Positions 43,343-58,941 of a stretch of DNA of 64,000 nucleotides are shown here, piece by piece. The notes beneath the pieces were generated by a model. The model worked only from the letters and a program-made list of their open reading frames with translations. It was not told the DNA's origin and ran no database searches. The stretch is from Dehalococcoidia bacterium. Lineage in GTDB: Bacteria > Chloroflexota > Dehalococcoidia > JAUSIH01. Where the stretch lies: assembly GCA_030648205.1 (NCBI GenBank), contig JAUSIH010000037.1, forward strand, positions 3,744 to 67,743. Direction: 5' to 3'. Every line of letters starts with the position of its first letter. Position 1 is the stretch's first letter. The position numbers were made by a program, and so were the translations under genes.

Positions 43343-44050
43343 GTGGACACACATGCCCTCGACTACACCCTCCGTATCCGAGACCTGCCTGCCTCCGAGC
43401 GGCCCCGCGAGCGTCTGCGGGACGCCGGCCCCAACGCCCTCTCCGCCGCGGAGCTTCTGGCGATCCTGCTCCGCACGGGCACTCCCTCCGAGAGCGCGCT
43501 GGCCCTCGGCTCGCGCCTGCTGTCGCAGTTCGGCGGGCTGGCGGGACTCGCCCGCGCCTCGCTCCGCGAGATGTGCGCGACGCACGGTGTGGGCGAGGCG
43601 AAAGCCGCGCAGCTCATGGCAGGCTTCGAGTTGGGGAAACGACTGCTGGCGCTGCATCCGGAGGAGCGCGCCGTGGTGCGCAGCCCGGCGGACGCCGCCA
43701 ACCTTCTTCAGGCGGAGATGGGGCTTCTGGCCCAGGAGCACCTGCGCGTCCTCCTGCTGAACACCAAGAACCGGGTGATCGGCGTCTCGGAGGTGTACAA
43801 AGGCAACGTCAACTCGTCAATGGTGCGTCCCGGCGAGGTCTTCCGCGACGCCATCCGCGAGAATTGTCCCGCCATCATCGTGGCGCACAACCACCCGTCG
43901 GGCGACCCCACGCCCTCGCAGGAGGACGTGCAAATGACTCGAAGACTGGTGGACGCGGGAAAACTGCTGGACATTGAGGTGCTGGACCACCTGATCATCG
44001 CGGGCAACAGCTTTGTCAGCCTCCGCGAGAAGAAGCTGGGGTTTGAGTAG
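43343..44050 (+). CDS. radC: RadC-like JAMM/MPN-domain protein (UPF0758)
   Basis: N-terminal HhH region and the JAMM motif '[22 protein letters not shown]'. Confidence 0.8.
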
Positions 44051-46879: not shown

Positions 46880-46905
46880 AGGATAGGCCGGCCCTCCGTC
46901 GGTCT

Positions 46906-47385
46906 TTAGGTCGAACTCCAGGGGATGGCGCCGATGGGCCCCACGCTCCAGTCGGGTTCGTATTGACTGTGGCCGAGGGAGAAGAGCGCGACGAGCAGAA
47001 GGATGGCGAAAGCCCACCAGTAGCGGCGGAGCGCGCGGTTGGCCAGCCCCTCGTGGTGCCTGGCAACGCGCCTGGCCCGCTCAATCTGACGATGCACCGC
47101 GTCGTGGGAGACGGCTTCACGTCGCGCCCAGCGGCTCAGAAGCTCGGCGCACTCCGCTTGGGCGAACGCGATCTCCTGGCGCGCGGACGGGCTCGTGGAG
47201 CCGACGGCGAGGGACGAAAGGTAGCTGTGCACCGACCGCAGTTGCTGCCATTCCGTCAGGCCGGGGGACTCGAAGTCCAGGGGGTTGTTGATGGTCAACT
47301 GCTGTTTGAAGAGCTGCATCTTGTTGCCCCCCTCGTTAAACGACAAGGTTAGCATGGCTGACCTTTCCACCGAAAGGCCAGCCAT
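46906..47385 (-). CDS. hypothetical protein with C-terminal TM (last gene of the minus-strand operon)
   Basis: 159-aa ORF directly downstream of lipoprotein A1. The start may be the internal Met ('MQLFKQQ'). Confidence 0.35.
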   Translation of the reverse strand: MAGLSVERSAMLTLSFNEGGNKMQLFKQQLTINNPLDFESPGLTEWQQLRSVHSYLSSLAVGSTSPSARQEIAFAQAECAELLSRWARREAVSHDAVHRQIERARRVARHHEGLANRALRRYWWAFAILLLVALFSLGHSQYEPDWSVGPIGAIPWSST

Positions 47386-47462
47386 GCTGCACAGGCGTCA
47401 ACTCGTACTAGCTACGCGCCGATCCAATGCCTCTTTCGCGGGTCGCCGCCCTGGCGTGCGGC

Positions 47463-49097
47463 TTACGGCACCACCTCTATCGCCAGCCGGAAGATGGGCA
47501 GTTGATATCCATACTCCAGGCTGGGATGGTCCTGAAGCGCGGTCAGTTGCGGCGTCTGGTACATGAAGGGGGGCTTCCCGTGCCCCTGATAGACGGTGGG
47601 GTACAGGTCAATCAAGTGCGTCCCCGGCTGGCCAGTCGCCCGCATGTTAATGACCACATCGCCTTTGCTGTTGAAGCCGCAGGCGTAGCCAATGTAGCTG
47701 TTGTCGTACGTGAGCGTGAAGGTGTTGTCAAGCTCCGTCCATCCGATGCCCTTCACGTGGACCTGGAACATCTCTCCCACCTTCACGCGGGAGGGAGTGA
47801 CCTCCACAAGACTCTGCTGGACGTAGAAGAAGGGCTCCGCGACCACCTTGTCGCCCTGCACGACCTTGAGCGTGTGCCACCCGCCGAGGTCGTCGGGGAC
47901 CTGGAAGTCCAAAGTCAGCGCACCCTGATTGTCCGATTTCGCTGTCCCCAGCGAGAGTTCCGCCAGCGCCCAGCCTCTGCCGCTCACGCGACTGCCTCTG
48001 GCCGTCATGAAGAAGACTTCGGTGGGGGTGTTGGCCGTCAGGCCCGTGACTCGCAGGGTCGCGTTGGAAAGAACGGGCCCTGTCGAGGGCGTGATGGTTG
48101 CCCGCGCTCCGGAGTTTATGGGCGTTTCACTCGCGGTGGTACGTATCGCGCTGAAGTTCAGCTTAACCACGCCCGGCTCCGGCCCGTCCAGGCTGGTGGC
48201 CGGCACGCCTGGGTCTTCCGTGACGGTGAACGTGAACTGGAAGGTGGGGGTATGACCCACTGGCGCCTGCTCCCAGTTCAGGTAGGGCACGCTCTTGTGG
48301 CCGTGCCAGAGTTCAATGACGTGTTTTCCCGGCGGCCCGCTGGCGCGAATAGCCGCCGTGGCCTGTCCACCCGTGGTGACGGTTGAAATGAACCCGGTGA
48401 ACTGGTTATCGTAGGTGAGGACCCAGGTGTTCTCGTACGGCCTCCAGCCGATCCCTTTGCCTTTGATGGTGATAGGCGTTCCTATGGGCCCTTGCGTGGG
48501 GGTGACGGTGAACTCCGGCAGGACGCGGAAGCCTCCCCGCGTCACATCCTGTCCGTCAACCACGCCGTACACGTCATGCACGCCGCCGTAGCCGTCCGGG
48601 GCGACAAGGTTCGCGCTCAGCTTGCCTTGTCCGTCGGTGACGGCGCGGCCGACAGGAACGCGCTTCTCGGTCCACTTGGCTTCGTAAAACTCTATGGTCT
48701 CCTGGCTGGGCTCCATGTCATAGCGTGCGCTCGCCGTCGCCCAGAAGAACTGCACCTCTTTGCTGGCGGGCAGGCCCTCGGCGCTGATGCTGAAGGGCTG
48801 GCCCACGCTGCCCTTGACGGGATTCACGTTGAGCGGCTTTGGGAGAGCGGCGGCGGCTGGCGCCGCCGCGGGCGCTGGCTGTCGAGGCGCGACCGCCGCC
48901 ACCGCTTCCGGCGCGCGCGGCTGCTCCATCTGCTTGGCCGCGGCCGGTGCGGCGACCGGCGCGGAACGCGGGGGTGCGGGAGAGGCCGATGAAACTCCCG
49001 GCGTACAGGCCGCCGCCAGCACAATCAGTCCAGAGAGGGCCAGATTGAATCCGGCCATCGGCAGATGTCGCTTTGGGAACGTTGCAAGGTTTTTCAT
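47463..49097 (-). CDS. uncharacterised lipoprotein 'A1' (~540 aa, internally duplicated beta-rich domains); paralog of 50037..51653
   Basis: SD 'gaaaggggggagg', then ATG at 49097. Lipobox 'VLAAAC'. Two internal repeats ('TVTPTQGPIGTPITIKGKGIGWRPYENTWVLTYDN' / 'EVTPSRVKVGEMFQVHVKGIGWTELDNTFTLTYDN'). Co-linear and similar to A2 over the whole length. Confidence 0.6.
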   Translation of the reverse strand: MKNLATFPKRHLPMAGFNLALSGLIVLAAACTPGVSSASPAPPRSAPVAAPAAAKQMEQPRAPEAVAAVAPRQPAPAAAPAAAALPKPLNVNPVKGSVGQPFSISAEGLPASKEVQFFWATASARYDMEPSQETIEFYEAKWTEKRVPVGRAVTDGQGKLSANLVAPDGYGGVHDVYGVVDGQDVTRGGFRVLPEFTVTPTQGPIGTPITIKGKGIGWRPYENTWVLTYDNQFTGFISTVTTGGQATAAIRASGPPGKHVIELWHGHKSVPYLNWEQAPVGHTPTFQFTFTVTEDPGVPATSLDGPEPGVVKLNFSAIRTTASETPINSGARATITPSTGPVLSNATLRVTGLTANTPTEVFFMTARGSRVSGRGWALAELSLGTAKSDNQGALTLDFQVPDDLGGWHTLKVVQGDKVVAEPFFYVQQSLVEVTPSRVKVGEMFQVHVKGIGWTELDNTFTLTYDNSYIGYACGFNSKGDVVINMRATGQPGTHLIDLYPTVYQGHGKPPFMYQTPQLTALQDHPSLEYGYQLPIFRLAIEVVP

Positions 49098-49133
49098 CGT
49101 CCTCCCCCCTTTCATTCGATGTACAGGCCGTTG

Positions 49134-49928
49134 CTATTCAATGATCTGGAGTCGCGTGTCCTCAGGGGGACTGCCTTGAGGAAAGATCAGGTACGGGGGC
49201 TTCCATGTGTACTTGCGCCCGTCCTTGGTGGCTATGTCAAACTCGTAGGTCAGGGCGCCCAGCGGATAGTTGAGGGGGACATCCCATTGGGTCACCCACA
49301 TGAAAGGGGCGTCAGGCTGGCGCCCGCCGGCGCGCTGGCCGAACCGCACGGTCTTTTCGTCGCCGTTCTGCATGCGCAGCTTGACGGTCGATCCATCCTG
49401 AGGTGTAAGGCGCTTCCCCGTGGATGTGTCGAACACTTCGAAGCGCCAGACTATGTTCATCCCGCGCTTGAACACGGTGGCGCCGACACAGGCGATGCTG
49501 CCCTGGATGACGTCTTCGGCATTGATCTTCAGATTGCCATGGGAGGAGGTCAGCACTTCCACGTAGACAACGAACGGGACGGGCTCGTAGAGAGAGGGTG
49601 GTGGCGGGGGTGGTGGTCGTGGCGTCGGGGCGCCGGGCACGGGCGTTGGCGCCGGTGTCCGCGGCTTGGCCAACGCCGCCGACACGAGCGCCATGCTGCC
49701 GGCTTGCTTGGCCGCGGCGGCTGCCTTCTGCTGCGCCGCCTGAATCTCCTGGTCCTTGGCGGCGAGTTGCTTCTGCAGGTCCGCTGCCTTCTTTTCCTGG
49801 GCCGTCGCCTGCGCCTTCGCGGCGTCCAGGTCTGCCTGGGAGATGCCGCTGCAAGCCGAGGCCAGCATGAGGATCGTGCCCAGCAGTCCGAACACTGCCG
49901 ACTTCTTGAACCGTATGCCGAATTTCAT
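49134..49928 (-). CDS. uncharacterised lipoprotein 'B1' (coiled-coil plus Pro-rich linker plus C-terminal domain); paralog of 51684..52493
   Basis: SD 'aaggaga', then ATG at 49928. Lipobox 'MLASACSG'. 'SQADLDAAKAQATA' coiled coil, a 'PPPPPPP' linker and the C-terminal domain 'VWRFE..D..TGKR.T..DG.TVK.R...GE......QRAGGR.PDAP.MW...WD.PLNYPLG'. Confidence 0.6.
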   Translation of the reverse strand: MKFGIRFKKSAVFGLLGTILMLASACSGISQADLDAAKAQATAQEKKAADLQKQLAAKDQEIQAAQQKAAAAAKQAGSMALVSAALAKPRTPAPTPVPGAPTPRPPPPPPPSLYEPVPFVVYVEVLTSSHGNLKINAEDVIQGSIACVGATVFKRGMNIVWRFEVFDTSTGKRLTPQDGSTVKLRMQNGDEKTVRFGQRAGGRQPDAPFMWVTQWDVPLNYPLGALTYEFDIATKDGRKYTWKPPYLIFPQGSPPEDTRLQIIE

Positions 49929-50036
49929 GCGTTCTCCTTTGTCAGTGGGGTGGTCTCGTCCATATGATGGTCGGTGCTTCAACCCAGACAAGCTGTATAT
50001 TTCGGGTCTCACCTCCGTTGGCTACCGCCTGGCCAG

Positions 50037-51653
50037 CTACGGCACCACCTCTATGGCCAGCCGGACGGCGGGCAGCTTGTATCCCAGCGACAGGGCAGGG
50101 AAGTCGTCTTTGTAGCTCAGGATGGGTACCTGGTATCCCCACGGCGGCTTCCCGTGCCCCTGATAGATCATCGGGTACAGGTCCACCAGGTGAATGCCAG
50201 GCGCGCCTGTGGCCACGAGGTTTACCGTGACGTCGCCCATGCTGTTGAAGCCGCACGCGAAGCCGATGTAGGCATTGTCATAGGTCATCGCCACGCCGTT
50301 CGTCAGCTCGGTCCAGCCCACTCCCTTGATGCGGATTGTAAAGGTCTCGCCAGCCTTCACGCGCGTTGGCGTCACGTCCACGAGGCTGATCTCGACGTAG
50401 TAGGGGACATCCGCGACAACCTTGCCCCCTTGCACCAGCTTCACCACGTGCCAGCCGCCCAGGTCGTCCGGGACCTGGATCGTCCCCGCCAGCACCCCAT
50501 TCGCGTCGGTTCTGGCCTTGAGAAGGGATGTCTCGTTCAAGCTCCACCCGCTCGGGCTGACGCGATTGCCGCGAACGGTCACCCAGAAGGCTTCCACATC
50601 GCTGTTGGGCGTGAGACCGCTCGCATTTAGCGCAGCTTTGGAGAGGATGGGGCCGGAGGCGGGTTTCAGCGTGGCGGTGGGGCCCGGCGACCGCAGGACG
50701 CCGCCCGCGCTACCTTGCGTGGTCTTGACAGCCTCGCTCACCGAGGCGACGCGGCTCGCGTCCGGCCAGTCGAGCGAGAAGGCCGGAAGGCCCTTGCTCT
50801 CGGTCACGGTGAACCAGGCGCGGAGGTCTGGTATGTGGGCGGTGCCGGACTGCTGGTTATTGAGGTACGGGACGGACTTGGCGCCATGGTTGAAGTCCAG
50901 GACGTGCTTGCCCACCGGGCCCGCGGCGCGGATGTGGGCTGTCGCCGTGCCGCGCGTGGTCACCGCCGTGATAATCCCCGTGGGCTGGTTGTTGTAGCGG
51001 AGCGCGATGGTGCTCTCGTAGACCTTCCAGCCGAGTCCGGTCATTTTGATGGTGATGGGGGTGCCGATGGGTCCTTCCTGCGGCGTGATGGTGACGTTCC
51101 GCATGATGCGGTAGCCGCCGCGCGCAACGTCGCCATTGTCCACGACGGCGAAGATGTCATGGACCTCCCCGAAGTCCTCCGGCGCCTTGAGCGACGCCGA
51201 GAACCTGCCTTGAGCGTCCGTGGTTGCCTGCCCCAGAGGCATCCGCTTCTCGACGAAATTCCTCTCGTAGAACTCGACGTTCTCCGCGGTGGCCTTCATG
51301 ACATAGCTGCCGTCCACCGTGACCCATAGCAACGTCACCGGCTTTCCGGGCGCAAGGCCGTCGCCGCTGATGGTGAAGGCGTCACCCACATAGCCCTTGC
51401 TGGGCTCGACCTTGAGCAGCTTCAGCGGTACGGGAGTGGGCGTGGGCGCCGTGGCGGGGCCGGCGCCGATCACCGGAACGTCCTGCATGTTTGGCGCAGT
51501 CGTTGTGGAAGAACTGGGGGAGGGCGGTCGCTCAGCGGGCTGCGCTTGCGGGGCAGAGACACAGGCCGCAAGCAACAGACCCGTGAGCGCAAGCATCAGG
51601 AACAGTCGTGCCCTCAAAGACCAATGCCTTGCTGATTCGTATGCGTTTGTCAT
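50037..51653 (-). CDS. uncharacterised lipoprotein 'A2' (paralog of A1)
   Basis: SD 'ggaggg', then ATG. Lipobox 'LLLAAC'. Shares '...LPxxRLAIEVVP' C-terminus and domain order with A1. Confidence 0.6.
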   Translation of the reverse strand: MTNAYESARHWSLRARLFLMLALTGLLLAACVSAPQAQPAERPPSPSSSTTTAPNMQDVPVIGAGPATAPTPTPVPLKLLKVEPSKGYVGDAFTISGDGLAPGKPVTLLWVTVDGSYVMKATAENVEFYERNFVEKRMPLGQATTDAQGRFSASLKAPEDFGEVHDIFAVVDNGDVARGGYRIMRNVTITPQEGPIGTPITIKMTGLGWKVYESTIALRYNNQPTGIITAVTTRGTATAHIRAAGPVGKHVLDFNHGAKSVPYLNNQQSGTAHIPDLRAWFTVTESKGLPAFSLDWPDASRVASVSEAVKTTQGSAGGVLRSPGPTATLKPASGPILSKAALNASGLTPNSDVEAFWVTVRGNRVSPSGWSLNETSLLKARTDANGVLAGTIQVPDDLGGWHVVKLVQGGKVVADVPYYVEISLVDVTPTRVKAGETFTIRIKGVGWTELTNGVAMTYDNAYIGFACGFNSMGDVTVNLVATGAPGIHLVDLYPMIYQGHGKPPWGYQVPILSYKDDFPALSLGYKLPAVRLAIEVVP

Positions 51654-51683
51654 GACCGCCCTCCGATCCCAGTTTAATGACTG

Positions 51684-52493
51684 CTATTCGACGATTTGAA
51701 GCCGACTGTCTGCCGTCGCGCTCACCAGCGCTGGCTGCTTCCATGTGCCAGTCGTCTTGCCATCCTTGGATGTCACAGTGATGCTGTAGTCGAGGCCGCC
51801 CAGCGGGTAGTTGAGCGGGATATCCCAAAACGCGTTCCACATCCAGGGTGCATCAGGGACGCGCCCGCCGGCTCGCTGGGACCACCGGGCGGTTATCTCC
51901 TCGCCGTGCGGGAGCCGCATCTTGACCGTCGCTCCGTCCAGGTCCGTCACCCGCTTGTCCGTGGCGAGGTCAATCGCCTCGAAGCGCCAGACGATGCGCT
52001 GCCCGCGCTTGAACACGCTGGTGGGCAGGCAGTTGACGGTGGAGGCTATGTCAAACTGGCTGGGCCTTTGTGTAGCCAGCGCCTCGACATGGAAGTAATA
52101 GGGGCCCACGGGCTGGGAGTAAGAAGCGGGAGTCACGGGCCGTGGTGGCGCCGCGACGCCGGGTGGGAGCGGCGTGGGAGTGGGAGGAGGCGGCGGCTGG
52201 GGCACTTTCTTCGCACCGATGAGCACCGTCACGCCCGCCGGGCCCGCGCTCTTCAGCGCGTCCTCTGCCTTCTTCTGCTCGGCCGTCAGCTTCTGTTGAA
52301 TGGTTGTGATCTCCTGCTGCCTGGCGGCCAGGTCCTTCTGGACAGCCGCCGTCTTCTGCTCGGCGGCGGTCGCCTGCGCCTTGGCGGCGTCCAGGTCCGC
52401 CTGGGAGATGCCGCTGCAGGCCGAGGCCAGCACCAGCGTTGCGCTCAGCGCCGAGAAAACCCCTAGCCTTTTGATACCTTTGCTAAACCCCAT
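51684..52493 (-). CDS. uncharacterised lipoprotein 'B2' (paralog of B1)
   Basis: Lipobox 'LVLASACSG'. Same coiled-coil, poly-Pro and C-terminal domain architecture as B1. Confidence 0.6.
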   Translation of the reverse strand: MGFSKGIKRLGVFSALSATLVLASACSGISQADLDAAKAQATAAEQKTAAVQKDLAARQQEITTIQQKLTAEQKKAEDALKSAGPAGVTVLIGAKKVPQPPPPPTPTPLPPGVAAPPRPVTPASYSQPVGPYYFHVEALATQRPSQFDIASTVNCLPTSVFKRGQRIVWRFEAIDLATDKRVTDLDGATVKMRLPHGEEITARWSQRAGGRVPDAPWMWNAFWDIPLNYPLGGLDYSITVTSKDGKTTGTWKQPALVSATADSRLQIVE

Positions 52494-52555
52494 GATGACC
52501 TCCTTTATCTCCTTTTTGGTGCGAGCCCAAAATACCGGCGCCGAAATGGCTTAGT

Positions 52556-53158
52556 CTATGGTCCCTTGTAGTCCAGGTTGGGGTACAAGGGGGCCGTAGG
52601 GCGGGTTACCTTGATGGCCTTGATCTCAAAACCGCCGCCTTTTGAAGATGCATGGCACGCGTTGCAGCCGTCAATGGCGTTGTCGTAAGCCTTTTCAAAG
52701 GCGGCTTTGTCTTTGGCCTTGGCCGCTGCTTCCAGGGCTTTCAGCGCTGGCGCCCAGTCACTCATGGCCTGCGCTCTTCCCGGGCGTGTCACCGCAATGG
52801 TGTTAAGCTCTTCGCCAGCGCGATAGATCTCGAAGCCGGCGAATTCCCAGTTTCCTGCCTGAGCAGCAAACCACATCAGGTTGAAGCTCTCGGTGAACTC
52901 GCGCATCCTGCCGGCTGTGCCAGGCTGGATAGCCCAGAGGGGCAGCTTTGTGTCAACCTTGGTGAACTTCTCGTCTATGATCTTGGTTACAGCTTCCGCG
53001 GAAGGGCCAGACGCACCTGCCGGGCCGGCCAGGCCTTGCGGTCCGGCAGGGCCGGGTGAGCCGGTAGGGCCAGCCGGGCCCTGGGGGCCAGCACACGCGG
53101 CCAGGACCAGAGTCATCAGGAGTCCTAGGATCAGAACAGGCCCGAGTTTTCTGAGCAC
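52556..53158 (-). CDS. cytochrome c'-like (class II, C-terminal CxxCH) lipoprotein with N-terminal collagen-like GXY repeats
   Basis: GTG start at 53158 with SD 'aaaggagg'. Lipobox 'LVLAAC'. Ten consecutive GXY triplets 'GPQGPAGPTGSPGPAGPQGLAGPAGASGPS'. Helical domain ends in 'AIDGCNACHASSKGG', a heme c site near the C-terminus as in cytochrome c'/c556. Confidence 0.6.
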   Translation of the reverse strand: MLRKLGPVLILGLLMTLVLAACAGPQGPAGPTGSPGPAGPQGLAGPAGASGPSAEAVTKIIDEKFTKVDTKLPLWAIQPGTAGRMREFTESFNLMWFAAQAGNWEFAGFEIYRAGEELNTIAVTRPGRAQAMSDWAPALKALEAAAKAKDKAAFEKAYDNAIDGCNACHASSKGGGFEIKAIKVTRPTAPLYPNLDYKGP

Positions 53159-53211
53159 GGAAACCTCCTTTGTTTGCTTACTTTGTGCAGGTCGCCGGGT
53201 AGCTCCTTTTC

Positions 53212-54189
53212 TCACCTCCTGCCGTGGACTCGGGAGATGCTGAAGGCCTGGTACAGGATGAACCCGAAGATTCCCCAGACCGCCAGTACAACAAGGGCCA
53301 GGCCAGAAGTGGCCCAGTGGTCGAGGAGTTGGTGGATGAGAGGCCGGTCCGCCACGCCGACTGTAAGAGACGCCGCCCACGGAGGTATGATGCCCAGCCC
53401 CGTCGACTCCATGACGTAGGCCGACGGCGGCGCGCCCGTGGACTGGATCGCTATGGCCTGCTCGCTCTCAGCGTACACGCCCATGCCCTCGAAGCGTGCC
53501 GTGATGGCGTACTGGTTCGTGGCAAGAGTGGGCTTGAAGTCCAGGAAGGCGACTCCTTTGGCATCGGTCTTCGCGGAGCCGATGTCCATCTTGCCCTTCC
53601 TGCCCGCGAACTCGGCGTCCAAGAGGAAGCGGACCTCCGCTTTGGGAACGGGGTTGCCGGAGCCGTCGTTCAGCGAGGCCATCAGGGCGACGGTCTCGCC
53701 TCCCGTGACCCAGGAAGAGGGAGAAACGTTCAGCTTTGTCGGGGTCAGCGCCGCGGCCCCACCGCCGCCACCGCCGCGCCGGACATTCAAGGCGCCGCGT
53801 TGCATGAAGTCGTGGATCTCGCAGTCCAGGTCGCACTTGAAGCGGAACGTGCCCGGTTTGTCCGCGAGGAACTTGAAGGTGAACTCTTTGTGTTCGGACG
53901 TGAGCTTGTCCGACTCCAGCTTGTATCCTTCCAGCACAATGATATGCTCGTCATGGATATACCCTTTGTGCGCCCACACGAAGGTCATCTCCACGAGCTT
54001 GCCCTGCTCGACTTCAATGACCGGGTCCCCTTCCTTGCCGTTGTAAGCGAACCCGGAGTCTGTTATCTCCACCCGCAGCTTCACGGGGTCATCGGCGCGG
54101 GCGACTCGCAGGGGCGTCAGCGCCAACAGAGCGACCAGGACGGCGGCGACTATTGCCGCGCGTCGTGTCCAGCTAACCATTTCTCGCAC
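53212..54189 (-). CDS. membrane-anchored cupredoxin-domain protein (type-1-like Cu site) with Ig-like domain and C-terminal TM
   Basis: N-terminal signal/TM. Cupredoxin beta-sandwich with 'WAHKGYIHDEH' and 'FKCDLDCEIHDFM' (C-x2-H-x2-M as in amicyanin, with an extra Cys 4 residues upstream). Gly-rich linker, a second beta domain and the C-terminal TM 'LALVVLAVWGIFGFILY'. Confidence 0.55.
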   Translation of the reverse strand: MREMVSWTRRAAIVAAVLVALLALTPLRVARADDPVKLRVEITDSGFAYNGKEGDPVIEVEQGKLVEMTFVWAHKGYIHDEHIIVLEGYKLESDKLTSEHKEFTFKFLADKPGTFRFKCDLDCEIHDFMQRGALNVRRGGGGGGAAALTPTKLNVSPSSWVTGGETVALMASLNDGSGNPVPKAEVRFLLDAEFAGRKGKMDIGSAKTDAKGVAFLDFKPTLATNQYAITARFEGMGVYAESEQAIAIQSTGAPPSAYVMESTGLGIIPPWAASLTVGVADRPLIHQLLDHWATSGLALVVLAVWGIFGFILYQAFSISRVHGRR

Positions 54190-55552
54190 CTCCCGTCTGC
54201 GGCGTGAGCGTGGTGGGCCCGGCCGCTAGTCCCGCGGACGGCGCCGACTGCTTGGCTTTCTCCTGCTCCCATCCTTCCTTCATCTCCCACACGGGGATTA
54301 TCGGAAAGAGCTTGGTGAAAAGCGTCAGGGTGAGCGCGAAGCCTCCGAAGGATGCCACGGTGACAGCTATCTCCACCCATGAGGGGGTATAGACGCCCCA
54401 GTCATACGGCAGAAGGGGCAGGGAAAGCGTTGGAACGACGATGATGAACCGTTTGATCCACATGCCGATGTTCACCAGGATGGACCCGATCAGCATCAGT
54501 GGGATGGTGCGCGTCCGGCGGAACGCCGCCCAGATGATGGGCAGAATCTGACCGAAGAAGAATCCCCCCCAGACCAGGGGGCTGTACTTGCCGAGCAGGA
54601 GCGACTCCAGCAGGAGTTTATCCTCGCTCGCCAGCTTGTAGCCTATGGTCAGGTACTCGGCGAAGGTGAAGTAGAGGTAGCCGATGCCGAATACCACGAG
54701 CAGGTAGCTCAGGTAGCGGAAGTGCTTCTCCGTTAAGTACTCCTCCAGGTGATAGACCTTGCGGAAGATGATCATGAGGGTGATGAGCATGGCCGTGCCG
54801 GAATACAGGGCGCCGACGGCGAAGTAGGGGGCGAAGATGGTGCTCGCCCAGCCCGCGCGGTAGGTCATGCCAAAGATCCAGGAGACCACTGAGTGCACCG
54901 TCACGCCGATGGGGATGATGATGAGCATCATGATGCCCGCGCCGCGCTCCAGGTGCCTGTGCTGCTCGGGCAATCCCTGCCATCCCAGGGAGACCAGAGA
55001 ATAGACGCGGTGACGCAGCCCGGATACCTTGCCGGCGAATTTGTCGCGCAGGAGGGCGGAGTCCGGAATAATGAACAGGAACAGGTAAATGACGCTGGCC
55101 GTCAGGTACGTGCTGATAGCCAGAATGTCCCACAGGAGGGGCGATTCAAGACGCCCGTACAGAAGAATGTTGGCGACCCGATCAGGGCGTCCCATGTCAA
55201 CTATGGGCATGAGGCCGCACATCAGCAGGGCGGAGACGGTGGTGATTTCCGCCAGGCGCGTGATCGGTCGGCGCCACTCCGCGCCCGTGATGCGCAGAAT
55301 GGCGGAGATGAAGGTGCCGGACATGCTCACTCCGCTGAAGAAGACGAAGTTGGAGATGTACAGGCCCCAGACCACCGTGTCACGCATCCCCGTGACGGCA
55401 AGGCCTCTCTGGAGCTGCTCGTAGTAGGCGACGAAGCCCACCCCCATAAGCACGACCAGGACGGCCATCCAGGCGTACCATGCGCGGGACGTATGCAAGA
55501 GGGGGCGATAGACCGTCTCTTCCAGTCGTTCTTCACGACTCGCGGTCGTCAT
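54173..55552 (-). CDS. NrfD/PsrC-family polytopic quinone-interacting membrane subunit
   Basis: 459 aa with ~10 TM helices and the typical NrfD N-terminal segment ('AWYAWMAVLVVLMGVGFVAYYEQLQRGLAVTGMRDTVVWGLYISNFVFFSG'). The start ATG at 55552 overlaps the stop of the FeS subunit. Confidence 0.8.
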   Translation of the reverse strand: MTTASREERLEETVYRPLLHTSRAWYAWMAVLVVLMGVGFVAYYEQLQRGLAVTGMRDTVVWGLYISNFVFFSGVSMSGTFISAILRITGAEWRRPITRLAEITTVSALLMCGLMPIVDMGRPDRVANILLYGRLESPLLWDILAISTYLTASVIYLFLFIIPDSALLRDKFAGKVSGLRHRVYSLVSLGWQGLPEQHRHLERGAGIMMLIIIPIGVTVHSVVSWIFGMTYRAGWASTIFAPYFAVGALYSGTAMLITLMIIFRKVYHLEEYLTEKHFRYLSYLLVVFGIGYLYFTFAEYLTIGYKLASEDKLLLESLLLGKYSPLVWGGFFFGQILPIIWAAFRRTRTIPLMLIGSILVNIGMWIKRFIIVVPTLSLPLLPYDWGVYTPSWVEIAVTVASFGGFALTLTLFTKLFPIIPVWEMKEGWEQEKAKQSAPSAGLAAGPTTLTPQTGGARNG

Positions 55553-56481
55553 TACTTGCCTCCTTCATGGGTCTTGTCCAGAGTGGCCCCCAGTTCCTGC
55601 CATGAGCGCGGGTTCTGGGTAGCGCGCTCGTCGCCGACGTGGTGGCCGTATTCCTGGCCGTGGCCGGGGATGTACCACACCCGTGGCCGCGTGCCCAGCT
55701 CCTCCTTCAGGCGGTAGGCGCTATTCTCGCCCAGGAACGTGGAGAGCTTGACGATGTCCGTGCCGTTGGTGGCGATGTCCTCGGTCAGATCGCCAAGATA
55801 GATCGCCTTCATGGGGCACTTCTCGGCGCAGGCGGGGAGCTTCCCATCCGCCGTGCGGTGCGCGCAGAGCATGCACTTCTCCACGGTACCCTGGCGGTGG
55901 GGAACGGGGAATTCAGGGCTGTACTTGGCGAATGTGGCCCCGGGCGGGTTCTGCGGCTGGTTCCAGTTGAAGGAGCGAGCTCCGTAGGGACAGGCGGCCA
56001 TGCACATGCGGCAGCCAATGCACCGCTCGTGGTTAATGAGGGTGACTCCCTCCTCCGTCCTGTAGGTGGCCCCCACCGGGCAGACCTTGACGCAGGGCGG
56101 GTTCTCACACTGCATGCACGGGCGGGGCAGGTAGTAGGTGTGGCCTGCCTCGCTTTTCACGTTCATGACCCTGAGCCACTGCTGCCCCGCCGGGACGAAG
56201 TGTTCCGTGTTGCAGGCCTCGGTGCACGCGGGCGGCTTGTCCTGCGTGACGCAGCCCTCGCACTTCCGCAGGTCAATCACCAATGTCCACTGGCGAAGCA
56301 CGCCGCCAGCCTTTTTGCCGGCTTCACCGGATGCGGTCCCGGTGGATTTACCCATCATCGAGGGCACAAGCGGCGCTGCGACGGCGGCCGCTCCGGCCAC
56401 TCCAATCAGTGCTAACAGCCGTCTCCGGCTGATTTTCCCGGCTTCGCCGGACTGGTTGGGGTCGCTGGTGTCACTGTCCAT
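55552..56481 (-). CDS. TAT-exported 4x[4Fe-4S] ferredoxin-type subunit (NrfC/PsrB/DmsB-like)
   Basis: Twin-arginine signal 'SRRRLLALIGVAGAAAVA'. Four Cys clusters ('CEGC..C...C', 'CMQCENPPCVKVCP', 'CIGCRMCMAACP', 'CMLCAH...CAEKCP'). SD 'aagggagggg' precedes the ATG at 56481. The upstream ATG at 56538 lacks an SD. Confidence 0.8.
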   Translation of the reverse strand: MDSDTSDPNQSGEAGKISRRRLLALIGVAGAAAVAAPLVPSMMGKSTGTASGEAGKKAGGVLRQWTLVIDLRKCEGCVTQDKPPACTEACNTEHFVPAGQQWLRVMNVKSEAGHTYYLPRPCMQCENPPCVKVCPVGATYRTEEGVTLINHERCIGCRMCMAACPYGARSFNWNQPQNPPGATFAKYSPEFPVPHRQGTVEKCMLCAHRTADGKLPACAEKCPMKAIYLGDLTEDIATNGTDIVKLSTFLGENSAYRLKEELGTRPRVWYIPGHGQEYGHHVGDERATQNPRSWQELGATLDKTHEGGK

Positions 56482-56640
56482 GGTCTCCCCTCCCTTGACT
56501 CGATCGAGGAACCCTCCCGCTCCTCGGCGCATATTCATATGCCAGATTCATTATGGCCGTTTAGAGGGGAGGGCAACATCCGAAAAACCTCGCGTCTTCC
56601 AGCGCGTGGAAACACCTGCTGTCAACACGTAGTCGTTCGG

Positions 56641-56670
56641 TTGCGATTCAAAGCGCGCCGCAAATATACT
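56641..56670 (+). promoter_or_regulatory. sigma70-like promoter TTGCGA-18-TATACT for the two-component system; divergent region shared with the NrfCD-like operon
   Basis: -35 at 56641-46, -10 at 56665-70. It lies in the 220-nt divergent intergenic region, 56482-56701. Confidence 0.45.
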
Positions 56671-56701
56671 AGAATAGAGTGTGAAAGCAGGTGCAGGGCG
56701 T

Positions 56702-57370
56702 ATGGAGCCGATTCGGGTTGTCCTGGGGGAAGACCACTCGCTGGTGCGCGAGGGGACGCGGCGCATCCTTGAGCAATACCCTGACCTGGTTGTCGTGGGA
56801 GAGGCCGGCGATGGGGAGCAGGCGCTTGAGATGGTGGGACGCCTGCAGCCAGACGTTGCTATCCTGGACGTTCGGATGCCAAAGCTCAGCGGCATCGAGG
56901 TAGTGCGTCGGATAAAGGCGTGCTCCCCGAACACGAAGGCATTGATGTTGACTGCCTACGATGACGACGACTACATTCTGGCATCAATGGAAGCGGAGGC
57001 GGCGGGCTATCTTCTTAAGACCGCCAGGGCCAGTGAGCTGGTAGAGGCGGTCCGGAGTGTCCATGCGGGCGAGTCTGTCCTGCACCCTGCTATCGCAGCG
57101 AAGGTGGCTCGCTTGTGGGGGCGCCGCCGGGTCAAGGTGGAGCAGGAGCCCGCCGAGGCGCTCAGCCCGCGGGAGCGCGAGGTGATGGACCTCGCCGCCA
57201 AGGGCCTTCGCAACAAGGACATAGCCGAGAAACTGTCCATAAGCGTGCGGACCGTGGAGGGACATTTCAATAGCATATTTGCCAAGCTGGGTGTCTCCTC
57301 CCGCGTTGAGGCTATTCTCTACGCGGTGTCGTTGCACACGGTCACTCCTGAAGAGGACAAGCGGACATAA
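56702..57370 (+). CDS. NarL/FixJ-family response regulator (REC + LuxR HTH)
   Basis: 'IRVVLGEDHSLVREG...VAILDVRMPKLSGIEV' receiver domain. The C-terminus 'LSPREREVMDLAAKGLRNKDIAEKLSISVRTVEGH' is a LuxR-type HTH. Confidence 0.85.
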   Translation: MEPIRVVLGEDHSLVREGTRRILEQYPDLVVVGEAGDGEQALEMVGRLQPDVAILDVRMPKLSGIEVVRRIKACSPNTKALMLTAYDDDDYILASMEAEAAGYLLKTARASELVEAVRSVHAGESVLHPAIAAKVARLWGRRRVKVEQEPAEALSPREREVMDLAAKGLRNKDIAEKLSISVRTVEGHFNSIFAKLGVSSRVEAILYAVSLHTVTPEEDKRT

Positions 57371-57372
57371 CT

Positions 57373-58941
57373 ATGGCGATTGACTACGTACGCAACGGCG
57401 ACCAGAGTTCTTCCTCGCGGCCCTTGGACGGGTTGGTTGAGAAGGGCAGGCATCGGCTTTCGCCTTATCTTCCCCGTTTCAGGGACTGGCGCTTCTGGGC
57501 GGTCCAGGGCTTGATAGCACTCATCGCGGGGACGCACACTATCCTGGAAGTCATGCGCCACAGCGGGTACACGGTCTTCGTGGGCCCTCCGGACGCGCAG
57601 GTGGTCCTGCTCTCTTTCATACCCGTCTCGCTGTTCTTCGTCCCCGTGGTGTACGCAGCCCTTAACTTCGGCCTGGCGGGCGCTGTGGCGACCGCCATAT
57701 GGTGTACGTTTCTTACAACACCCAACATCATGCTTCATTCGGAAACGGAGCGCATCCGCGAAGTCTTGCAGTTGGGGATTGTGGACGGCGTCGCGGTCTT
57801 CGTGGGGCAGCGCGTTAACCGGGAGATGAGCGCGCGGAAAGAGGCGGAAGACGCCAGCGCGGCGCTGCGTGTGTCAGAGGCCAAGTACCGGGGGCTTTTT
57901 GAGTCCTCCCCGGCGCCCATCCTCGTCCTGGACTCGCAGGGGGTCGTTTTGGAGGCCAATCCGGCGGCGGGCGTGCTGCTGGCCAGGTCTTCCGACGCTC
58001 TCAAGGGCGCCCATGTTTCTGACCTTTTTGAAACGCCGGGGGCCGAGCGGATACTGGGCTTGCTTCAGGAGGGCAGACGCGAAGACTCGTACGTTGTTTT
58101 GAAGTCCCTGGCCGGTGAGGAAACATACTTGGAGCCGATGGGGACGCGTATCAACGGCGGCCAAGCCAAAGCCGTCGTTCAGGTATTACTCAGGGACGTG
58201 ACTGTGGAGCGCCAGAGGCAGTTGGGCCTGCGGGCCTACGCCGCCCACGTGCTCCGCGCGCAGGAAGAAGAACGCAAGCGCATCGCCCAGGAGCTCCACG
58301 ATGAGACCGTCCAGACCCTCATTCTGCTGTGCCGTCGCCTGGATGTAGTGGAGACCGGGTGCGGGTCTATGCCCTCGTCCGCCATGGATGGGTTGAGGGA
58401 GGCCCGGAAGACGGCTGAAGCAGTCGTCAGAGACCTGCGGGATTTCAGCAAGGCTCTGCGGCCGCCGACGCTGGACGACCTTGGGTTGGTCACTTCCATT
58501 CGCAGGATTCTGATGGACCTGATGGACAGGGCCAAGGTGAATGGCCAGATAAAGGTGGTGGGGGAGGAGCGGCGCCTGCCGCCGGACCTGGAGCTTGCCT
58601 TATTCCGGATCGCGCAGGAGGCAATGCGGAACGTGGAGCGTCATGCCCAAGCGCGGGAAGTGACGGTGACCCTGTCCTTCTCCGGACGCGAGGCCAGGCT
58701 GGACGTTGTGGACAACGGCGTGGGCTTTGTGCTGCCTCCCCACTCGAGCGACATGGCCGCGTTCGGCCGGCTGGGGCTTCTCGGTATGCGGGAGCGGGCG
58801 GAACTGCTGGGCGGCAGGCTTGAGGTCAAGTCCACCGCTGGCAAGGGCACGCGGATCACCGCCTCTATTCCCGCTCCCGCTGACTCCACCTCACAGCCCC
58901 TCAGCCCCACCGGAAGCGCTGGGGGGAGAGGCAGTCCCTAA
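57373..58941 (+). CDS. membrane sensor histidine kinase (HisKA_3/NarX-DesK type) with PAS domain
   Basis: N-terminal TM helices, a PAS-like region ('LFESSPAPILVLDSQGVVLEANPAA'), H-box 'RIAQELHDETVQTL' and HATPase 'VVDNGVGF...GLLGMRERAELLGGRLEV'. Confidence 0.8.
   Translation: MAIDYVRNGDQSSSSRPLDGLVEKGRHRLSPYLPRFRDWRFWAVQGLIALIAGTHTILEVMRHSGYTVFVGPPDAQVVLLSFIPVSLFFVPVVYAALNFGLAGAVATAIWCTFLTTPNIMLHSETERIREVLQLGIVDGVAVFVGQRVNREMSARKEAEDASAALRVSEAKYRGLFESSPAPILVLDSQGVVLEANPAAGVLLARSSDALKGAHVSDLFETPGAERILGLLQEGRREDSYVVLKSLAGEETYLEPMGTRINGGQAKAVVQVLLRDVTVERQRQLGLRAYAAHVLRAQEEERKRIAQELHDETVQTLILLCRRLDVVETGCGSMPSSAMDGLREARKTAEAVVRDLRDFSKALRPPTLDDLGLVTSIRRILMDLMDRAKVNGQIKVVGEERRLPPDLELALFRIAQEAMRNVERHAQAREVTVTLSFSGREARLDVVDNGVGFVLPPHSSDMAAFGRLGLLGMRERAELLGGRLEVKSTAGKGTRITASIPAPADSTSQPLSPTGSAGGRGSP

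What the first reader, a model, noticed from the sequence alone, without database searches (positions are those of the whole stretch)
47463..52493. Recent tandem duplication of a two-gene lipoprotein cassette (B2-A2 / B1-A1)
The ~2.5-kb unit 'B lipoprotein + A lipoprotein' occurs twice in tandem. Paralogs are collinear at protein level, and nucleotide identity extends into gene starts and ends. Compare 49850-49900 with 52415-52450 ('gatgccgctgca(a/g)gccgaggccagca...'), and 47466-47500 with 50037-50070 ('ggcaccacctctat(c/g)gccagccgga...'). A proteins (~540 aa) carry two internal repeats of a beta-rich module with HGH/WxxHG motifs. B proteins combine a lipid anchor, a coiled coil, a poly-proline spacer and a conserved ~150-aa C-terminal domain. 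Tandem dosage or variant pairs of unknown extracytoplasmic proteins inside a redox operon suggest substrate- or partner-specific variants.
Basis: seen in the sequence. Interest (0 to 1): 0.6.

Follow-up and report, generated by a model that had tools for sequence, protein, structure and literature searches.

The report
Ancient paired lipoprotein genes, redox operon
Two neighbouring copies of a two-gene cassette for cell-surface lipoproteins are real but ancient duplicates; they belong to a widespread, undescribed protein pair that sits beside a quinone-linked iron-sulfur/copper membrane complex in many bacteria and at least one archaeon.

Summary
The tandem B-A/B-A layout is real: A1/A2 share 52% and B1/B2 47% of residues, collinear end to end. 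It is not recent. Synonymous sites are saturated (dS about 1.1). A1 is closer to 58 of 78 homologs from other genomes than to A2, and the two never pair in 100 bootstrap trees. The largest (68 nt, 94%) covers the end of the B signal peptide and the start of the coiled coil, and mosaic B genes in relatives point to local gene conversion.

B-then-A is a conserved unit: 59 adjacent pairs in 66 genome loci, in one to three copies. In Chloroflexota it follows a Tat-exported FeS protein, an NrfD membrane subunit and a cupredoxin-like protein in 28 of 35 informative loci. The same layout with two B-A pairs occurs in a Thaumarchaeota MAG.

A is four Ig-like domains (an internal two-domain repeat). B is a lipid anchor, helix, proline linker and one beta-sandwich. 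Neither matches Pfam, NCBIfam or PDB sequences. Each mature protein keeps exactly one invariant cysteine.

Function is unproven. My best guess is that B-A forms the outward-facing partner module of a small ACIII-like quinone complex.

The parts
51684..52493 (-). B1: 269-aa lipoprotein. Lipobox Cys26, long helix 31-82, Pro-rich linker of about 40 aa, C-terminal beta-sandwich. The single other Cys (C155, codon 52029-52031) is family-invariant.
   Evidence: ORF. AF2 pLDDT 86. Family alignment. Cys census 65/65. Ribosome-binding site AAGGAGG.
50037..51653 (-). A1: 538-aa lipoprotein. Lipobox Cys31, disordered linker to about residue 75, then four Ig-like beta-sandwich domains (a two-domain module repeated). 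Invariant C467 (codon 50253-50255), H165, H402, H488, W110, W447, Y458 and D459.
   Evidence: AF2 pLDDT 86, pTM 0.80. Internal repeat E = 8e-18. Conservation.
49134..49928 (-). B2: 264-aa paralog of B1 (47% identity). Lipobox Cys26 and invariant Cys147 (codon 49488-49490). The ORF lister extends it to 50012, but the annotated and homology-supported start is 49928.
   Evidence: P0164 = Q7T26_04280, 264 aa. Start and RBS. Cys positions.
47463..49115 (-). A2: 550-aa paralog of A1 (52% identity). The real start may be Met7 at 49097. Lipobox Cys37 and invariant Cys479 (codon 47679-47681). All A-family invariant residues are kept (one near-invariant Trp, W505, is Phe in A2).
52365..52432 (-). Patch of 64/68 nt identity with 49800-49867. 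It covers the end of the B signal peptide, the lipobox and the first coiled-coil turns. Probable gene-conversion tract between the B paralogs.
   Evidence: Local pS 0.35 against 0.57 overall. Mosaic B genes in relatives: P0150 has a B1-type leader (26/27) on a B2-type body (88/89 and 62/64), and P0147 is also mosaic.
50038..50065 (-). 27/28 nt identity with 47464-47491, covering the last codons of A and the stop. A second exact 22-mer at 50146-50167 / 47572-47593 encodes YQGHGKP.
52556..53158 (-). Context: 200-aa lipoprotein with a ten-triplet collagen-like Gly-X-Y stalk and a cytochrome c'-like domain carrying a C-terminal CNACH haem motif. The real start is the GTG at 53158, not 53380.
   Evidence: Pfam Collagen and Cytochrom_C_2, both below cutoff. 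Start and RBS.
53212..54189 (-). Context: cupredoxin-like domain plus Ig-like (Big) domain plus C-terminal TM helix. Conserved H...F-K-C-D-L-x-C-x-x-H-x-x-[L/M]-Q motif.
   Evidence: Pfam hits below cutoff. Alignment of 25 homologs from related loci.
54173..55552 (-). Context: NrfD-family integral membrane subunit (DsrP-like, below the NCBIfam cutoff).
   Evidence: PF03916 E = 1.1e-28. NF045798 DsrP 130.7 bits against a cutoff of 350.
55552..56538 (-). Context: Tat-exported (SRRRLLAL) four-cluster FeS subunit, DsrO/PsrB-like.
   Evidence: Fer4_11 E = 1.1e-22. DsrO 192.8 bits against a cutoff of 200. Tat motif read from the translation.
56681..58941 (+). Context: divergent NarL-type response regulator (56681-57370) and PAS/HisKA_3 histidine kinase (57373-58941). 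The same pair flanks many related loci.

Best explanation
B1-A1 and B2-A2 are two old paralogous copies of one conserved two-gene module. This much is shown.

Each module encodes two membrane-tethered, outward-facing proteins built from Ig-like beta-sandwiches. Neither carries a recognisable cofactor motif. Each has exactly one invariant cysteine, and A also has four conserved histidines, two per pseudo-repeat.

In Chloroflexota, in a Thaumarchaeota MAG, and in one further lineage of unknown taxon (L070; there the third gene aligns only over the Ig-like and TM part and lacks the Cys/His motif), the module sits immediately downstream of a Tat-exported FeS protein, an NrfD quinone-interacting subunit and a cupredoxin-like protein. 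A c-type cytochrome is often present too.

My inference is that B and A form a heteromeric complex that acts as the peripheral, partner- or substrate-facing end of a small ACIII/Qrc-like quinone-linked electron-transfer complex. That complex would use copper, with or without haem, instead of a molybdopterin subunit. The invariant Cys of A, the invariant Cys of B and the A histidines would form the working site. I think a thiolate-ligated metal (copper) site is most likely, and redox-active or persulfide-carrying thiols less likely.

On this reading the two pairs in the window are long-diverged isoforms (A1-type and A2-type) kept side by side. Occasional gene conversion homogenises the B leader and lipobox region.

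Shown: the duplication and its age, the pairing, the synteny, the folds and the Cys/His conservation. Inferred: A-B contact, metal or thiol chemistry, and the direction of electron flow.
For: Age and paralogy:
- 52% and 47% identity; dS about 1.1.
- A2-type copies occur in four other genomes, and L022 has the same order.
- A1 and A2 are sisters in 0 of 100 bootstraps.

Pairing:
- B lies directly upstream of A for 59 of 79 A genes in 66 loci.
- Distant B-like/A-like pairs occur in L070, L073 and L076; in L078 a 545-aa neighbour carrying the same Cys/R-G motif precedes the A-like gene but did not reach E <= 1 with the B profile.
- A and B distance matrices correlate (Mantel r = 0.65, 0 of 2000 permutations). 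Shared organismal history could produce this on its own.

Link to the redox module:
- 28 of 35 Chloroflexota loci with informative flanks carry FeS-NrfD-cupredoxin next to B-A.
- The archaeal locus L073 reads FeS, NrfD, cupredoxin-like, B-like, A-like, B-like, A-like, Redoxin, CcdA.
- L070 has the same order (FeS, NrfD, 350-aa protein, B-like, A-like), but its 350-aa protein matches only the C-terminal part of the cupredoxin-protein profile and lacks the Cys/His motif.
- Among 76 same-strand flanking genes in Chloroflexota, 16 are class I cytochromes c, 3 are cytochrome b and 1 is COX1.

Site:
- A C467 is present in 79 of 79 sequences, and 78 of 79 have no other mature Cys.
- B C155 is present in 65 of 65, and 61 of 65 have no other mature Cys.
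- H165 79/79, H402 76/79, H488 77/79, H250 74/79.
- Archaeal and TM-anchored variants keep YDNxYxGYxCGF and C-x5-F-x-R-G.
- A thioredoxin-like Redoxin plus CcdA sits in the archaeal operon. That fits cysteines that must be kept reduced.

Fold: confident AF2 models, pLDDT 86 for both and pTM 0.80 for A.
Against: - No cofactor motif, no haem motif and no known metal-binding family was detected in A or B.
- Foldseek finds only generic Ig/MG-domain matches: TM below 0.2 for A, and no match at E <= 0.001 for B.
- In Binatia/'delta' (0 of 9 informative loci), and in the single loci labelled Verrucomicrobiia, Thermoleophilia and Pseudomonadota, the pair stands alone. It sits beside luciferase-like monooxygenase, phosphoglucomutase and amylase genes, or beside MMPL and surface-protein genes. 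So the pair does not strictly need an adjacent FeS-NrfD module.
- All homologs come from uncultured MAGs, so there are no expression or biochemical data.
Confidence: 0.5

Rival explanations
1. Recent in-lineage tandem duplication that provides extra dosage.
For: The units are adjacent and collinear with short, nearly identical DNA patches at gene ends.
Against: - dS is about 1.1 and DNA identity is only 69-73% over the best stretches.
- Orthologs in other genomes are closer than the paralog.
- A1 and A2 are sisters in 0 of 100 bootstraps.
- The same two types sit in the same order in L022.
Confidence: 0.02
2. B and A are redox-inert envelope proteins: stalked Ig-like scaffolds, spacers or adhesins of the cell surface. 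In some lineages they would merely be co-transcribed with a respiratory complex, or would tether it. The conserved Cys would form an A-B disulfide or have a structural role.
For: - All-Ig-like folds, with best structural matches to MG domains, ICAM and an S-layer protein.
- Stalk-like coiled coil, poly-Pro and Pro/Ala linkers.
- Stand-alone pairs next to surface-protein, MMPL and carbohydrate genes in Binatia-like, L076 and L078 loci.
- One unpaired Cys on each partner is what an intermolecular disulfide needs.
Against: - The FeS-NrfD-cupredoxin-(B-A)n order is kept from Chloroflexota to an archaeon. That is hard to explain by chance co-transcription.
- The invariant His, Asp, Tyr and Trp set in A is more than a scaffold usually conserves.
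- A Redoxin/CcdA reductant in the archaeal operon argues for thiols kept reduced rather than a disulfide.
Confidence: 0.25
3. B-A is a thiol-based carrier pair, SoxYZ-like in logic. It would hold a sulfur (persulfide or polysulfide) or other thiol-bound substrate on its single cysteines, and the DsrO/DsrP-like FeS-NrfD module would oxidise or reduce that substrate.
For: - Two Ig-like partners encoded side by side, each with a single invariant Cys.
- The FeS and NrfD subunits score best against DsrO and DsrP.
- ArsR-type regulators sit upstream in L070 and L073. From general knowledge, some members of that family sense persulfide.
Against: - The Cys lies inside a domain, not on a flexible C-terminal GGCGG arm as in SoxY.
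- No Sox, Dsr or Sqr genes were seen nearby.
- The DsrO and DsrP scores are below the NCBIfam cutoffs.
- The flanking genes are cytochromes c/b and oxidase subunits, which suggests aerobic-type respiration.
Confidence: 0.12
4. B and A are maturation or chaperone factors that deliver copper to the neighbouring cupredoxin-like protein. This would be analogous to PCuAC/Sco/NosL.
For: - They are adjacent to a cupredoxin-like protein with a two-Cys, CuA-like motif.
- They are lipoproteins with Cys/His sites.
- A TlpA-like Redoxin plus CcdA is present in the archaeal operon.
Against: - A 540-aa four-domain protein in up to four copies per operon (L053) is unlike known chaperones.
- Pairs exist without any nearby cupredoxin gene.
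- There is no similarity to Sco, PCuAC or NosL.
Confidence: 0.08

Closest known systems
NrfD/PsrC-type quinone-interacting complexes (PsrABC, NrfCD, DsrMKJOP's DsrOP, QrcABCD, Nhc/Hmc, alternative complex III), as catalogued in PMC8076601
   Same: A Tat-exported four-cluster FeS subunit plus an NrfD-family membrane subunit are encoded side by side. Peripheral extracytoplasmic redox partners follow in the same operon.
   Different: There is no molybdopterin subunit and no multihaem cytochrome. Instead the operon has a cupredoxin-like TM-anchored protein, an optional mono- or dihaem cytochrome, and one to three B-A pairs. The 2021 review of NrfD-like subunits does not contain the words copper or cupredoxin. 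The DsrO and DsrP scores are below the NCBIfam cutoffs.
Alternative complex III with auracyanin in Chloroflexus (general knowledge)
   Same: It occurs in the same phylum and uses an FeS plus NrfD module. A membrane-tethered blue-copper protein and lipoprotein cytochrome subunits act as peripheral electron carriers.
   Different: ACIII has ActA (pentahaem), a large ActB, two NrfD-like subunits, and nothing like A or B. The system here is much smaller and carries the B-A pair.
SoxYZ carrier heterodimer
   Same: Two small Ig-like beta-sandwich partners are encoded together, and a conserved cysteine acts as the functional group.
   Different: There is no sequence similarity. The Cys is internal, not in a C-terminal GGCGG arm. 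Both partners carry a Cys. A has four domains. No Sox genes are present.
Braun lipoprotein Lpp / FtsB (labels that JGI gave to some B homologs)
   Same: An N-terminal lipobox and a coiled-coil helix.
   Different: B is about 260 aa, with a Pro-rich linker and a conserved beta-sandwich domain bearing an invariant Cys. The labels reflect the coiled coil only.
IPT/TIG and macroglobulin (MG) Ig-like domains
   Same: The fold class. A1 scores 21.0 bits against the TIG cutoff of 20.9. Foldseek top hits are alpha-2-macroglobulin/C3 MG domains and ICAM.
   Different: TM-scores are below 0.2. There is no thioester domain. The CGFN stretch is not a CGEQ-type thioester motif, because its fourth position varies (N, Y, Q) in distant members.

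Membership tests
Recent tandem gene duplication | Low synonymous divergence and high DNA identity across the whole unit | tested here: not met
   dS is 1.05-1.13. DNA identity is 69-73% over the best 185-300 nt stretches.
Recent tandem gene duplication | The paralogs are each other's closest relatives | tested here: not met
   A2 ranks 59th of 78 from A1. They are sisters in 0 of 100 bootstraps.
NrfD/FeS quinone-module complexes (PsrBC / DsrOP / ACIII type), for the operon that holds the cassette | NrfD-family polytopic membrane subunit | tested here: met
   PF03916 E = 1.1e-28, 101 bits against a cutoff of 25.8.
NrfD/FeS quinone-module complexes (PsrBC / DsrOP / ACIII type), for the operon that holds the cassette | Tat-exported polyferredoxin (four-cluster) subunit | tested here: met
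   Fer4_11 E = 1.1e-22. SRRRLLAL twin-arginine motif in the translation.
NrfD/FeS quinone-module complexes (PsrBC / DsrOP / ACIII type), for the operon that holds the cassette | Molybdopterin catalytic subunit or multihaem cytochrome partner | tested here: not met
   None lies between 46906 and 56538. Only a monohaem c'-like lipoprotein is present.
DsrMKJOP | DsrO and DsrP above the equivalog cutoffs, with DsrM, K and J adjacent | tested here: not met
   DsrO scores 192.8 against a cutoff of 200, and DsrP 130.7 against 350. There are no DsrMKJ neighbours.
SoxYZ | SoxY C-terminal GGCGG swinging arm, and Pfam/NCBIfam SoxY/SoxZ matches | tested here: not met
   The Cys is internal (A1 C467, B1 C155). 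No family hits.
Bacterial lipoproteins | Signal peptide ending in a lipobox [LVI][ASTVI][GAS]C | tested here: met
   LLAAC (A1), LAAAC (A2), LASAC (B1, B2). A lipobox was found in 49 of 73 A and 50 of 56 B homologs with a strict pattern. Binatia-type A have a plain signal or anchor instead.
IPT/TIG Ig-like domain (PF01833) | Score above the gathering threshold | tested here: inconclusive
   A1 scores 21.0 bits against 20.9, with no stretch passing on its own. A2 has no hit. Some homologs carry a precomputed PF01833 hit.
Thioester-containing alpha-2-macroglobulin/C3-like proteins | CGEQ thioester motif within a thioester domain | tested here: not met
   Only MG-type Ig domains match, at TM below 0.2. 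The fourth position of the CGFN motif varies in distant homologs.
Cupredoxin / CuA-type copper site (for A or B themselves) | Cys-x(2-4)-His-x(2-4)-Met loop, or C-x3-C-x3-H-x2-M | tested here: not met
   A has C467 and H488, 21 residues apart. B has no conserved His or Met. The neighbouring cupredoxin-like protein carries C-x3-C-x2-H-x2-[L/M]-Q.
A-B heteromeric complex | Physical contact between the two proteins | not testable with these tools
Only adjacency and correlated divergence are available.

The most novel reading that the evidence does not exclude
A and B together form a previously unrecognised kind of extracytoplasmic redox protein. It would be an Ig-fold heterodimer whose single cysteines (one from each chain) and the A histidines build a thiolate-bridged copper site, or another metal site. 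This heterodimer would be the catalytic or electron-exit head of a minimal, molybdenum-free, NrfD-FeS-cupredoxin quinone oxidoreductase conserved in Bacteria and Archaea. The A1-type and A2-type pairs would be isoforms for different partners or substrates.
Probability: 0.2. Interest if true: 0.8.

Novelty: new variant of a known kind. Interest (0 to 1): 0.55.

Why it matters
The duplication itself is ordinary. What it points to is not.

The A family has at least 236 representatives at E <= 1e-30 among 50%-identity clusters. A and B have no Pfam, NCBIfam or PDB-sequence relative. They are found across Chloroflexota, Binatia-like and actinobacterial MAGs, plus single loci labelled Acidobacteria, Verrucomicrobiia and Pseudomonadota, and in at least one Thaumarchaeota MAG.

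In two domains of life the pair is wired to an FeS-NrfD-cupredoxin module, and that combination is absent from the published catalogue of NrfD complexes. If the pair proves to be the working end of that complex, it would define a new respiratory or extracytoplasmic redox enzyme class in abundant, uncultured soil and groundwater lineages. The one-invariant-Cys-per-partner pattern gives a simple handle for experiments.

Tried and rejected
1. Sequence families. Pfam and NCBIfam scans of A1, A2, B1 and B2 gave nothing meaningful. PDB sequence searches with single proteins and with profiles gave nothing below E = 0.001, apart from coiled-coil noise.

3. Literature. Six full-text searches combining NrfD with cupredoxin, copper, Chloroflexi, Thaumarchaeota or Dehalococcoidia found no description of this operon.

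4. Thioester idea. CGFN resembles the CGEQ motif of alpha-2-macroglobulin. I dropped this because the fourth position varies (CGFY, CGFQ, CANN) in distant homologs and there is no thioester domain.

5. Natural B-A fusions as evidence of contact. The two candidates (P0284, P0285) read like frame-shifted or merged gene calls, with His/Arg-rich out-of-frame stretches. I did not use them.

6. The 159-aa ORF downstream of A2 (46906-47385). It has no family hit and no homolog in any of the 69 loci searched at that point (L001-L069), so I do not count it as part of the system.

7. Promoter and terminator scan. It found no minus-strand promoter-like site anywhere in 46500-57000, and no minus-strand terminator-like site in the B/A intergenic gaps.

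8. Mantel correlation of A and B distances. It is real, but I do not count it as proof of co-evolution, because shared species history would give the same signal.

Full report
**What is there.**
The minus strand between 56538 and 46906 carries a tight gene string with overlaps or gaps of 18-108 nt. In order it reads:
- a Tat-exported four-cluster FeS protein (55552-56538);
- an NrfD-family membrane protein (54173-55552);
- a cupredoxin-like plus Ig-like protein with a C-terminal TM helix (53212-54189);
- a lipoprotein cytochrome (52556-53158);
- B1 (51684-52493), A1 (50037-51653), B2 (49134-49928) and A2 (47463-49115);
- an unconserved 159-aa ORF.

A NarL-type response regulator and a PAS histidine kinase are transcribed divergently. 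The window matches a Dehalococcoidia MAG with locus tags Q7T26_04280 to Q7T26_04290.

**Checking the observation.**
A1/A2 align over 511 residues at 52% identity (E = 0.0). B1/B2 align over 278 residues at 47% (E = 4e-67). Both alignments are collinear through the folded domains, not only the Pro/Ala linkers.

The repeat finder sees the unit twice with 2541-2574 nt spacing, at 69-73% DNA identity over the best stretches.

The internal repeat in A is significant, with E = 8e-18 for A1 and 7e-24 for A2.

AlphaFold models built on alignments of 46-47 sequences are confident, with pLDDT 86 for both.
- A is an anchor, a disordered linker and four beta-sandwich domains, with pTM 0.80. That value suggests a fixed arrangement of the two two-domain halves.
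- B is an anchor, a helix spanning residues 31-82, a proline-rich linker and one beta-sandwich.

**The duplication is old.**
- Nei-Gojobori estimates give dS of 1.13 (A) and 1.05 (B). These are saturated values. dN is 0.41-0.44 and the ratio is about 0.39, which overestimates the true ratio because dS is saturated.
- A1 has orthologs at 60-69% identity in other Chloroflexota MAGs.
- In a distance matrix of 79 A proteins, A2 is only the 59th closest to A1. A2's own nearest relatives are copies in L030, L027, L022 and L002.
- In the NJ tree A2 groups with those four, apart from the A1 group.
- A1 and A2 are sisters in 0 of 100 bootstrap replicates. The exact A1 and A2 groups recur in 42 and 40 replicates, so the deeper order is soft.
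- Locus L022 has the same order, with an A1-type pair first and an A2-type pair second.
- Both window copies keep every family-invariant residue; one near-invariant Trp (W505) is Phe in A2.

**The near-identical patches.**
Background identity between the paralogs is about 60% at the DNA level. The B patch reaches 93-94% and includes synonymous positions; local pS is 0.35 against 0.57 overall.

B genes in close relatives are mosaics:
- P0150 has a B1-type leader (26 of 27) joined to a B2-type body (88 of 89 and 62 of 64).
- P0147 joins a B1 leader (27 of 27) to a B2-type first coil (20 of 20) and a third body type.

I read this as recurrent short gene conversion among the 5' ends of B paralogs. 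The A patches encode invariant motifs (YQGHGKP and the C-terminal RLAIEVVP), so they may simply reflect constraint plus codon bias.

**B-A is a conserved unit.**
A genome-collection scan returned 66 loci. Searching their ORFs with the window proteins shows B directly upstream of A for 59 of 79 A genes. A few loci have the order A-B.

Copy number varies:
- 47 loci have one pair.
- L022, L042, L043 and L048 have two pairs, like the window.
- L032 has three pairs.
- L014 and L059 have one B and two A.
- L053 has two B and four A.

The A and B distance matrices correlate (Mantel r = 0.65, 0 of 2000 permutations). That fits inheritance as a unit, but shared species history alone could also produce it.

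A profile search of 1.84 billion cluster representatives finds 236 proteins at E <= 1e-30 and 763 at E <= 1e-10.

**Link to the redox module.**
Among Chloroflexota loci with enough flanking sequence, 28 of 35 have FeS-NrfD-cupredoxin next to B-A. A NarL-type two-component system is usually present as well.

A dihaem class I cytochrome c lies between the cupredoxin gene and B, or just after A, in 11 loci. A Pfam census of 76 same-strand flanking genes gives 16 cytochromes c, 8 DAO-type and 5 Pyr_redox_2 flavoproteins, 3 cytochromes b and 1 COX1.

The most telling case is distant. P0229 comes from a Thaumarchaeota/Nitrososphaerota MAG. It is an A-like protein whose two halves are separated by a TM hairpin. 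Its locus L073 reads: ArsR-type regulator, FeS, NrfD, cupredoxin-like (H86, C122-x4-C127-x2-H130-x2-L-Q), B-like, A-like, B-like, A-like, thioredoxin-like Redoxin, CcdA.

L070, of unknown taxon, has FeS, NrfD, a 350-aa protein that matches only the C-terminal part of the cupredoxin-protein profile and lacks the Cys/His motif, B-like and a circularly permuted A-like.

By contrast, Binatia/'delta' loci (0 of 9 informative), the single loci labelled Verrucomicrobiia, Thermoleophilia and Pseudomonadota, and L076 and L078 carry the pair alone. There it sits next to unrelated metabolic or surface-protein genes.

**The conserved chemistry.**
Apart from the lipobox, each protein has exactly one cysteine, and it is invariant.
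- A C467 is present in 79 of 79 sequences, and 78 of 79 have no other mature Cys.
- B C155 is present in 65 of 65, and 61 of 65 have no other mature Cys.
- All four window proteins follow the rule.
- Archaeal and TM-anchored variants keep YDNxYxGYxCGF in A and C-x5-F-x-R-G in B.
- A also keeps H165 (79/79), H402 (76/79), H488 (77/79), H250 (74/79), W110, W447, Y458 and D459. That is two histidines and a Y-D-N motif per pseudo-repeat, with the Cys only in the last domain.
- B conserves arginines and tryptophans but no histidine or methionine.

**Interpretation.**
Single unpaired cysteines that are invariant in two adjacent, co-inherited extracytoplasmic proteins are unlikely to be decorative.

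Several observations fit together: the fixed position behind an FeS-NrfD-cupredoxin set, the frequent cytochromes, and a thiol reductant pair in the archaeal operon. From general knowledge, Thaumarchaeota typically lack cytochrome c maturation. So I favour a heteromeric B-A module that forms the outer end of a small, molybdenum-free, ACIII/Qrc-like quinone complex.

On this view the Cys and His residues make a metal (probably copper) or thiol-based site. This is inference. I could not model the A-B complex or inspect model coordinates, and no family, motif or fold match supports any cofactor.

The main rival is that B-A is a redox-inert, stalked surface scaffold. The generic Ig folds and the stand-alone pairs in other phyla keep that reading alive.

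**Comparison with what is known.**
The FeS and NrfD subunits place the operon among NrfD-type quinone modules. Their best scores are to DsrO and DsrP, both below cutoff. The defining catalytic partners, a molybdopterin subunit or a multihaem cytochrome, are absent.

The 2021 survey of NrfD-like subunits mentions neither copper nor cupredoxin partners, and six full-text searches found no description of this operon. A and B themselves belong to no described family. Labels such as 'Lpp' or 'FtsB' on B homologs reflect only the coiled coil.

**Verdict.**
'Recent' is wrong. 'Variant pairs in a redox operon' is reasonable. The duplication is ordinary. The module it duplicates is a widespread, undescribed partner of a known kind of membrane complex.

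Noticed in passing
window 52556-53158 (-): The lipoprotein cytochrome has a ten-triplet collagen-like stalk (GPQ GPA GPT GSP GPA GPQ GLA GPA GAS GPS) between the lipobox and a cytochrome c'-like four-helix domain with a C-terminal CNACH. The ORF lister starts it 222 nt too early; a GTG at 53158 follows an AAGGAGG site. All the lipoproteins in this operon carry long stalks: collagen-like, coiled coil plus poly-Pro, or Pro/Ala.
   Followed up: partly
window 53212-54189 (-); homologs in about 21 loci, e.g. L004:2-1141, L022:535-1461, L073:5485-6510: The cupredoxin-like protein conserves H...F-K-C-D-L-x-C-x-x-H-x-x-[L/M]-Q. This is a two-Cys motif, one residue shorter than the CuA signature C-x3-C-x3-H-x2-M. 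Most homologs have Leu-Gln where the window has Met-Gln. It may be a CuA-like or unusual type 1 copper site on a TM-anchored protein.
   Followed up: partly
window 52365-52432 vs 49800-49867; proteins P0147, P0150, P0161: B paralogs in close relatives are mosaics. P0150 has a B1-type leader on a B2-type body, and P0147 has a B1 leader, a B2-type first coil and a third body type. This indicates recurrent short gene conversion limited to the signal-peptide and lipobox end.
   Followed up: yes
proteins P0229, P0235, P0252, P0253, P0264 (N-half first) and P0250, P0255, P0272 (C-half first); loci L070, L073, L078: Distant A homologs split the two two-domain halves with a TM hairpin, add a C-terminal TM helix in place of the lipid anchor, and occur in both circular orders. 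This fits the two halves forming a pseudo-symmetric dimer at the membrane surface.
   Followed up: partly
L073:12620-13888 (+); L002:2459-3808 (+): Thiol-reductant genes sit beside the system: a thioredoxin-like Redoxin plus CcdA/DsbD_TM in the Thaumarchaeota locus, and a DsbD_TM protein next to a 666-aa cupredoxin protein upstream in L002. A DUF411 (CopG-type) gene lies about 2 kb further on in L073, on the other strand.
   Followed up: no
L002:18533-21560 and L018:11656-15124: Some genomes carry a second FeS-NrfD module a few kb away. It is followed by a cytochrome c plus Big-domain protein instead of the cupredoxin/B/A set, suggesting a family of related small NrfD complexes with swapped peripheral subunits.
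   Followed up: no
L022:6976-7692, L032:9384-10832, L038:6751-8070, L058:11787-13493, L041:335-1720, L069:12603-15260: A roughly 480-aa FAD-dependent oxidoreductase-like protein (weak DAO hit) recurs directly after the last A gene, or nearby, in six Chloroflexota loci. It is absent from the window.
   Followed up: partly
window 44054-46879 (+): A 941-aa membrane protein with a PMT_2 glycosyltransferase domain and a C-terminal PA14 domain converges on the end of the operon. RadC lies just upstream at 43343-44050.
   Followed up: no
window 46906-47385 (-): A 159-aa ORF 77 nt downstream of A2 has good codon statistics. It has no family hit and no homolog in any related locus, so its status as a gene or operon member is unclear.
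   Followed up: partly
proteins P0284, P0285: These apparent B-domain plus A fusions in the representative library contain long His/Arg-rich stretches typical of out-of-frame high-GC translation. They are probably merged or frame-shifted gene calls, not true fusions.
   Followed up: partly
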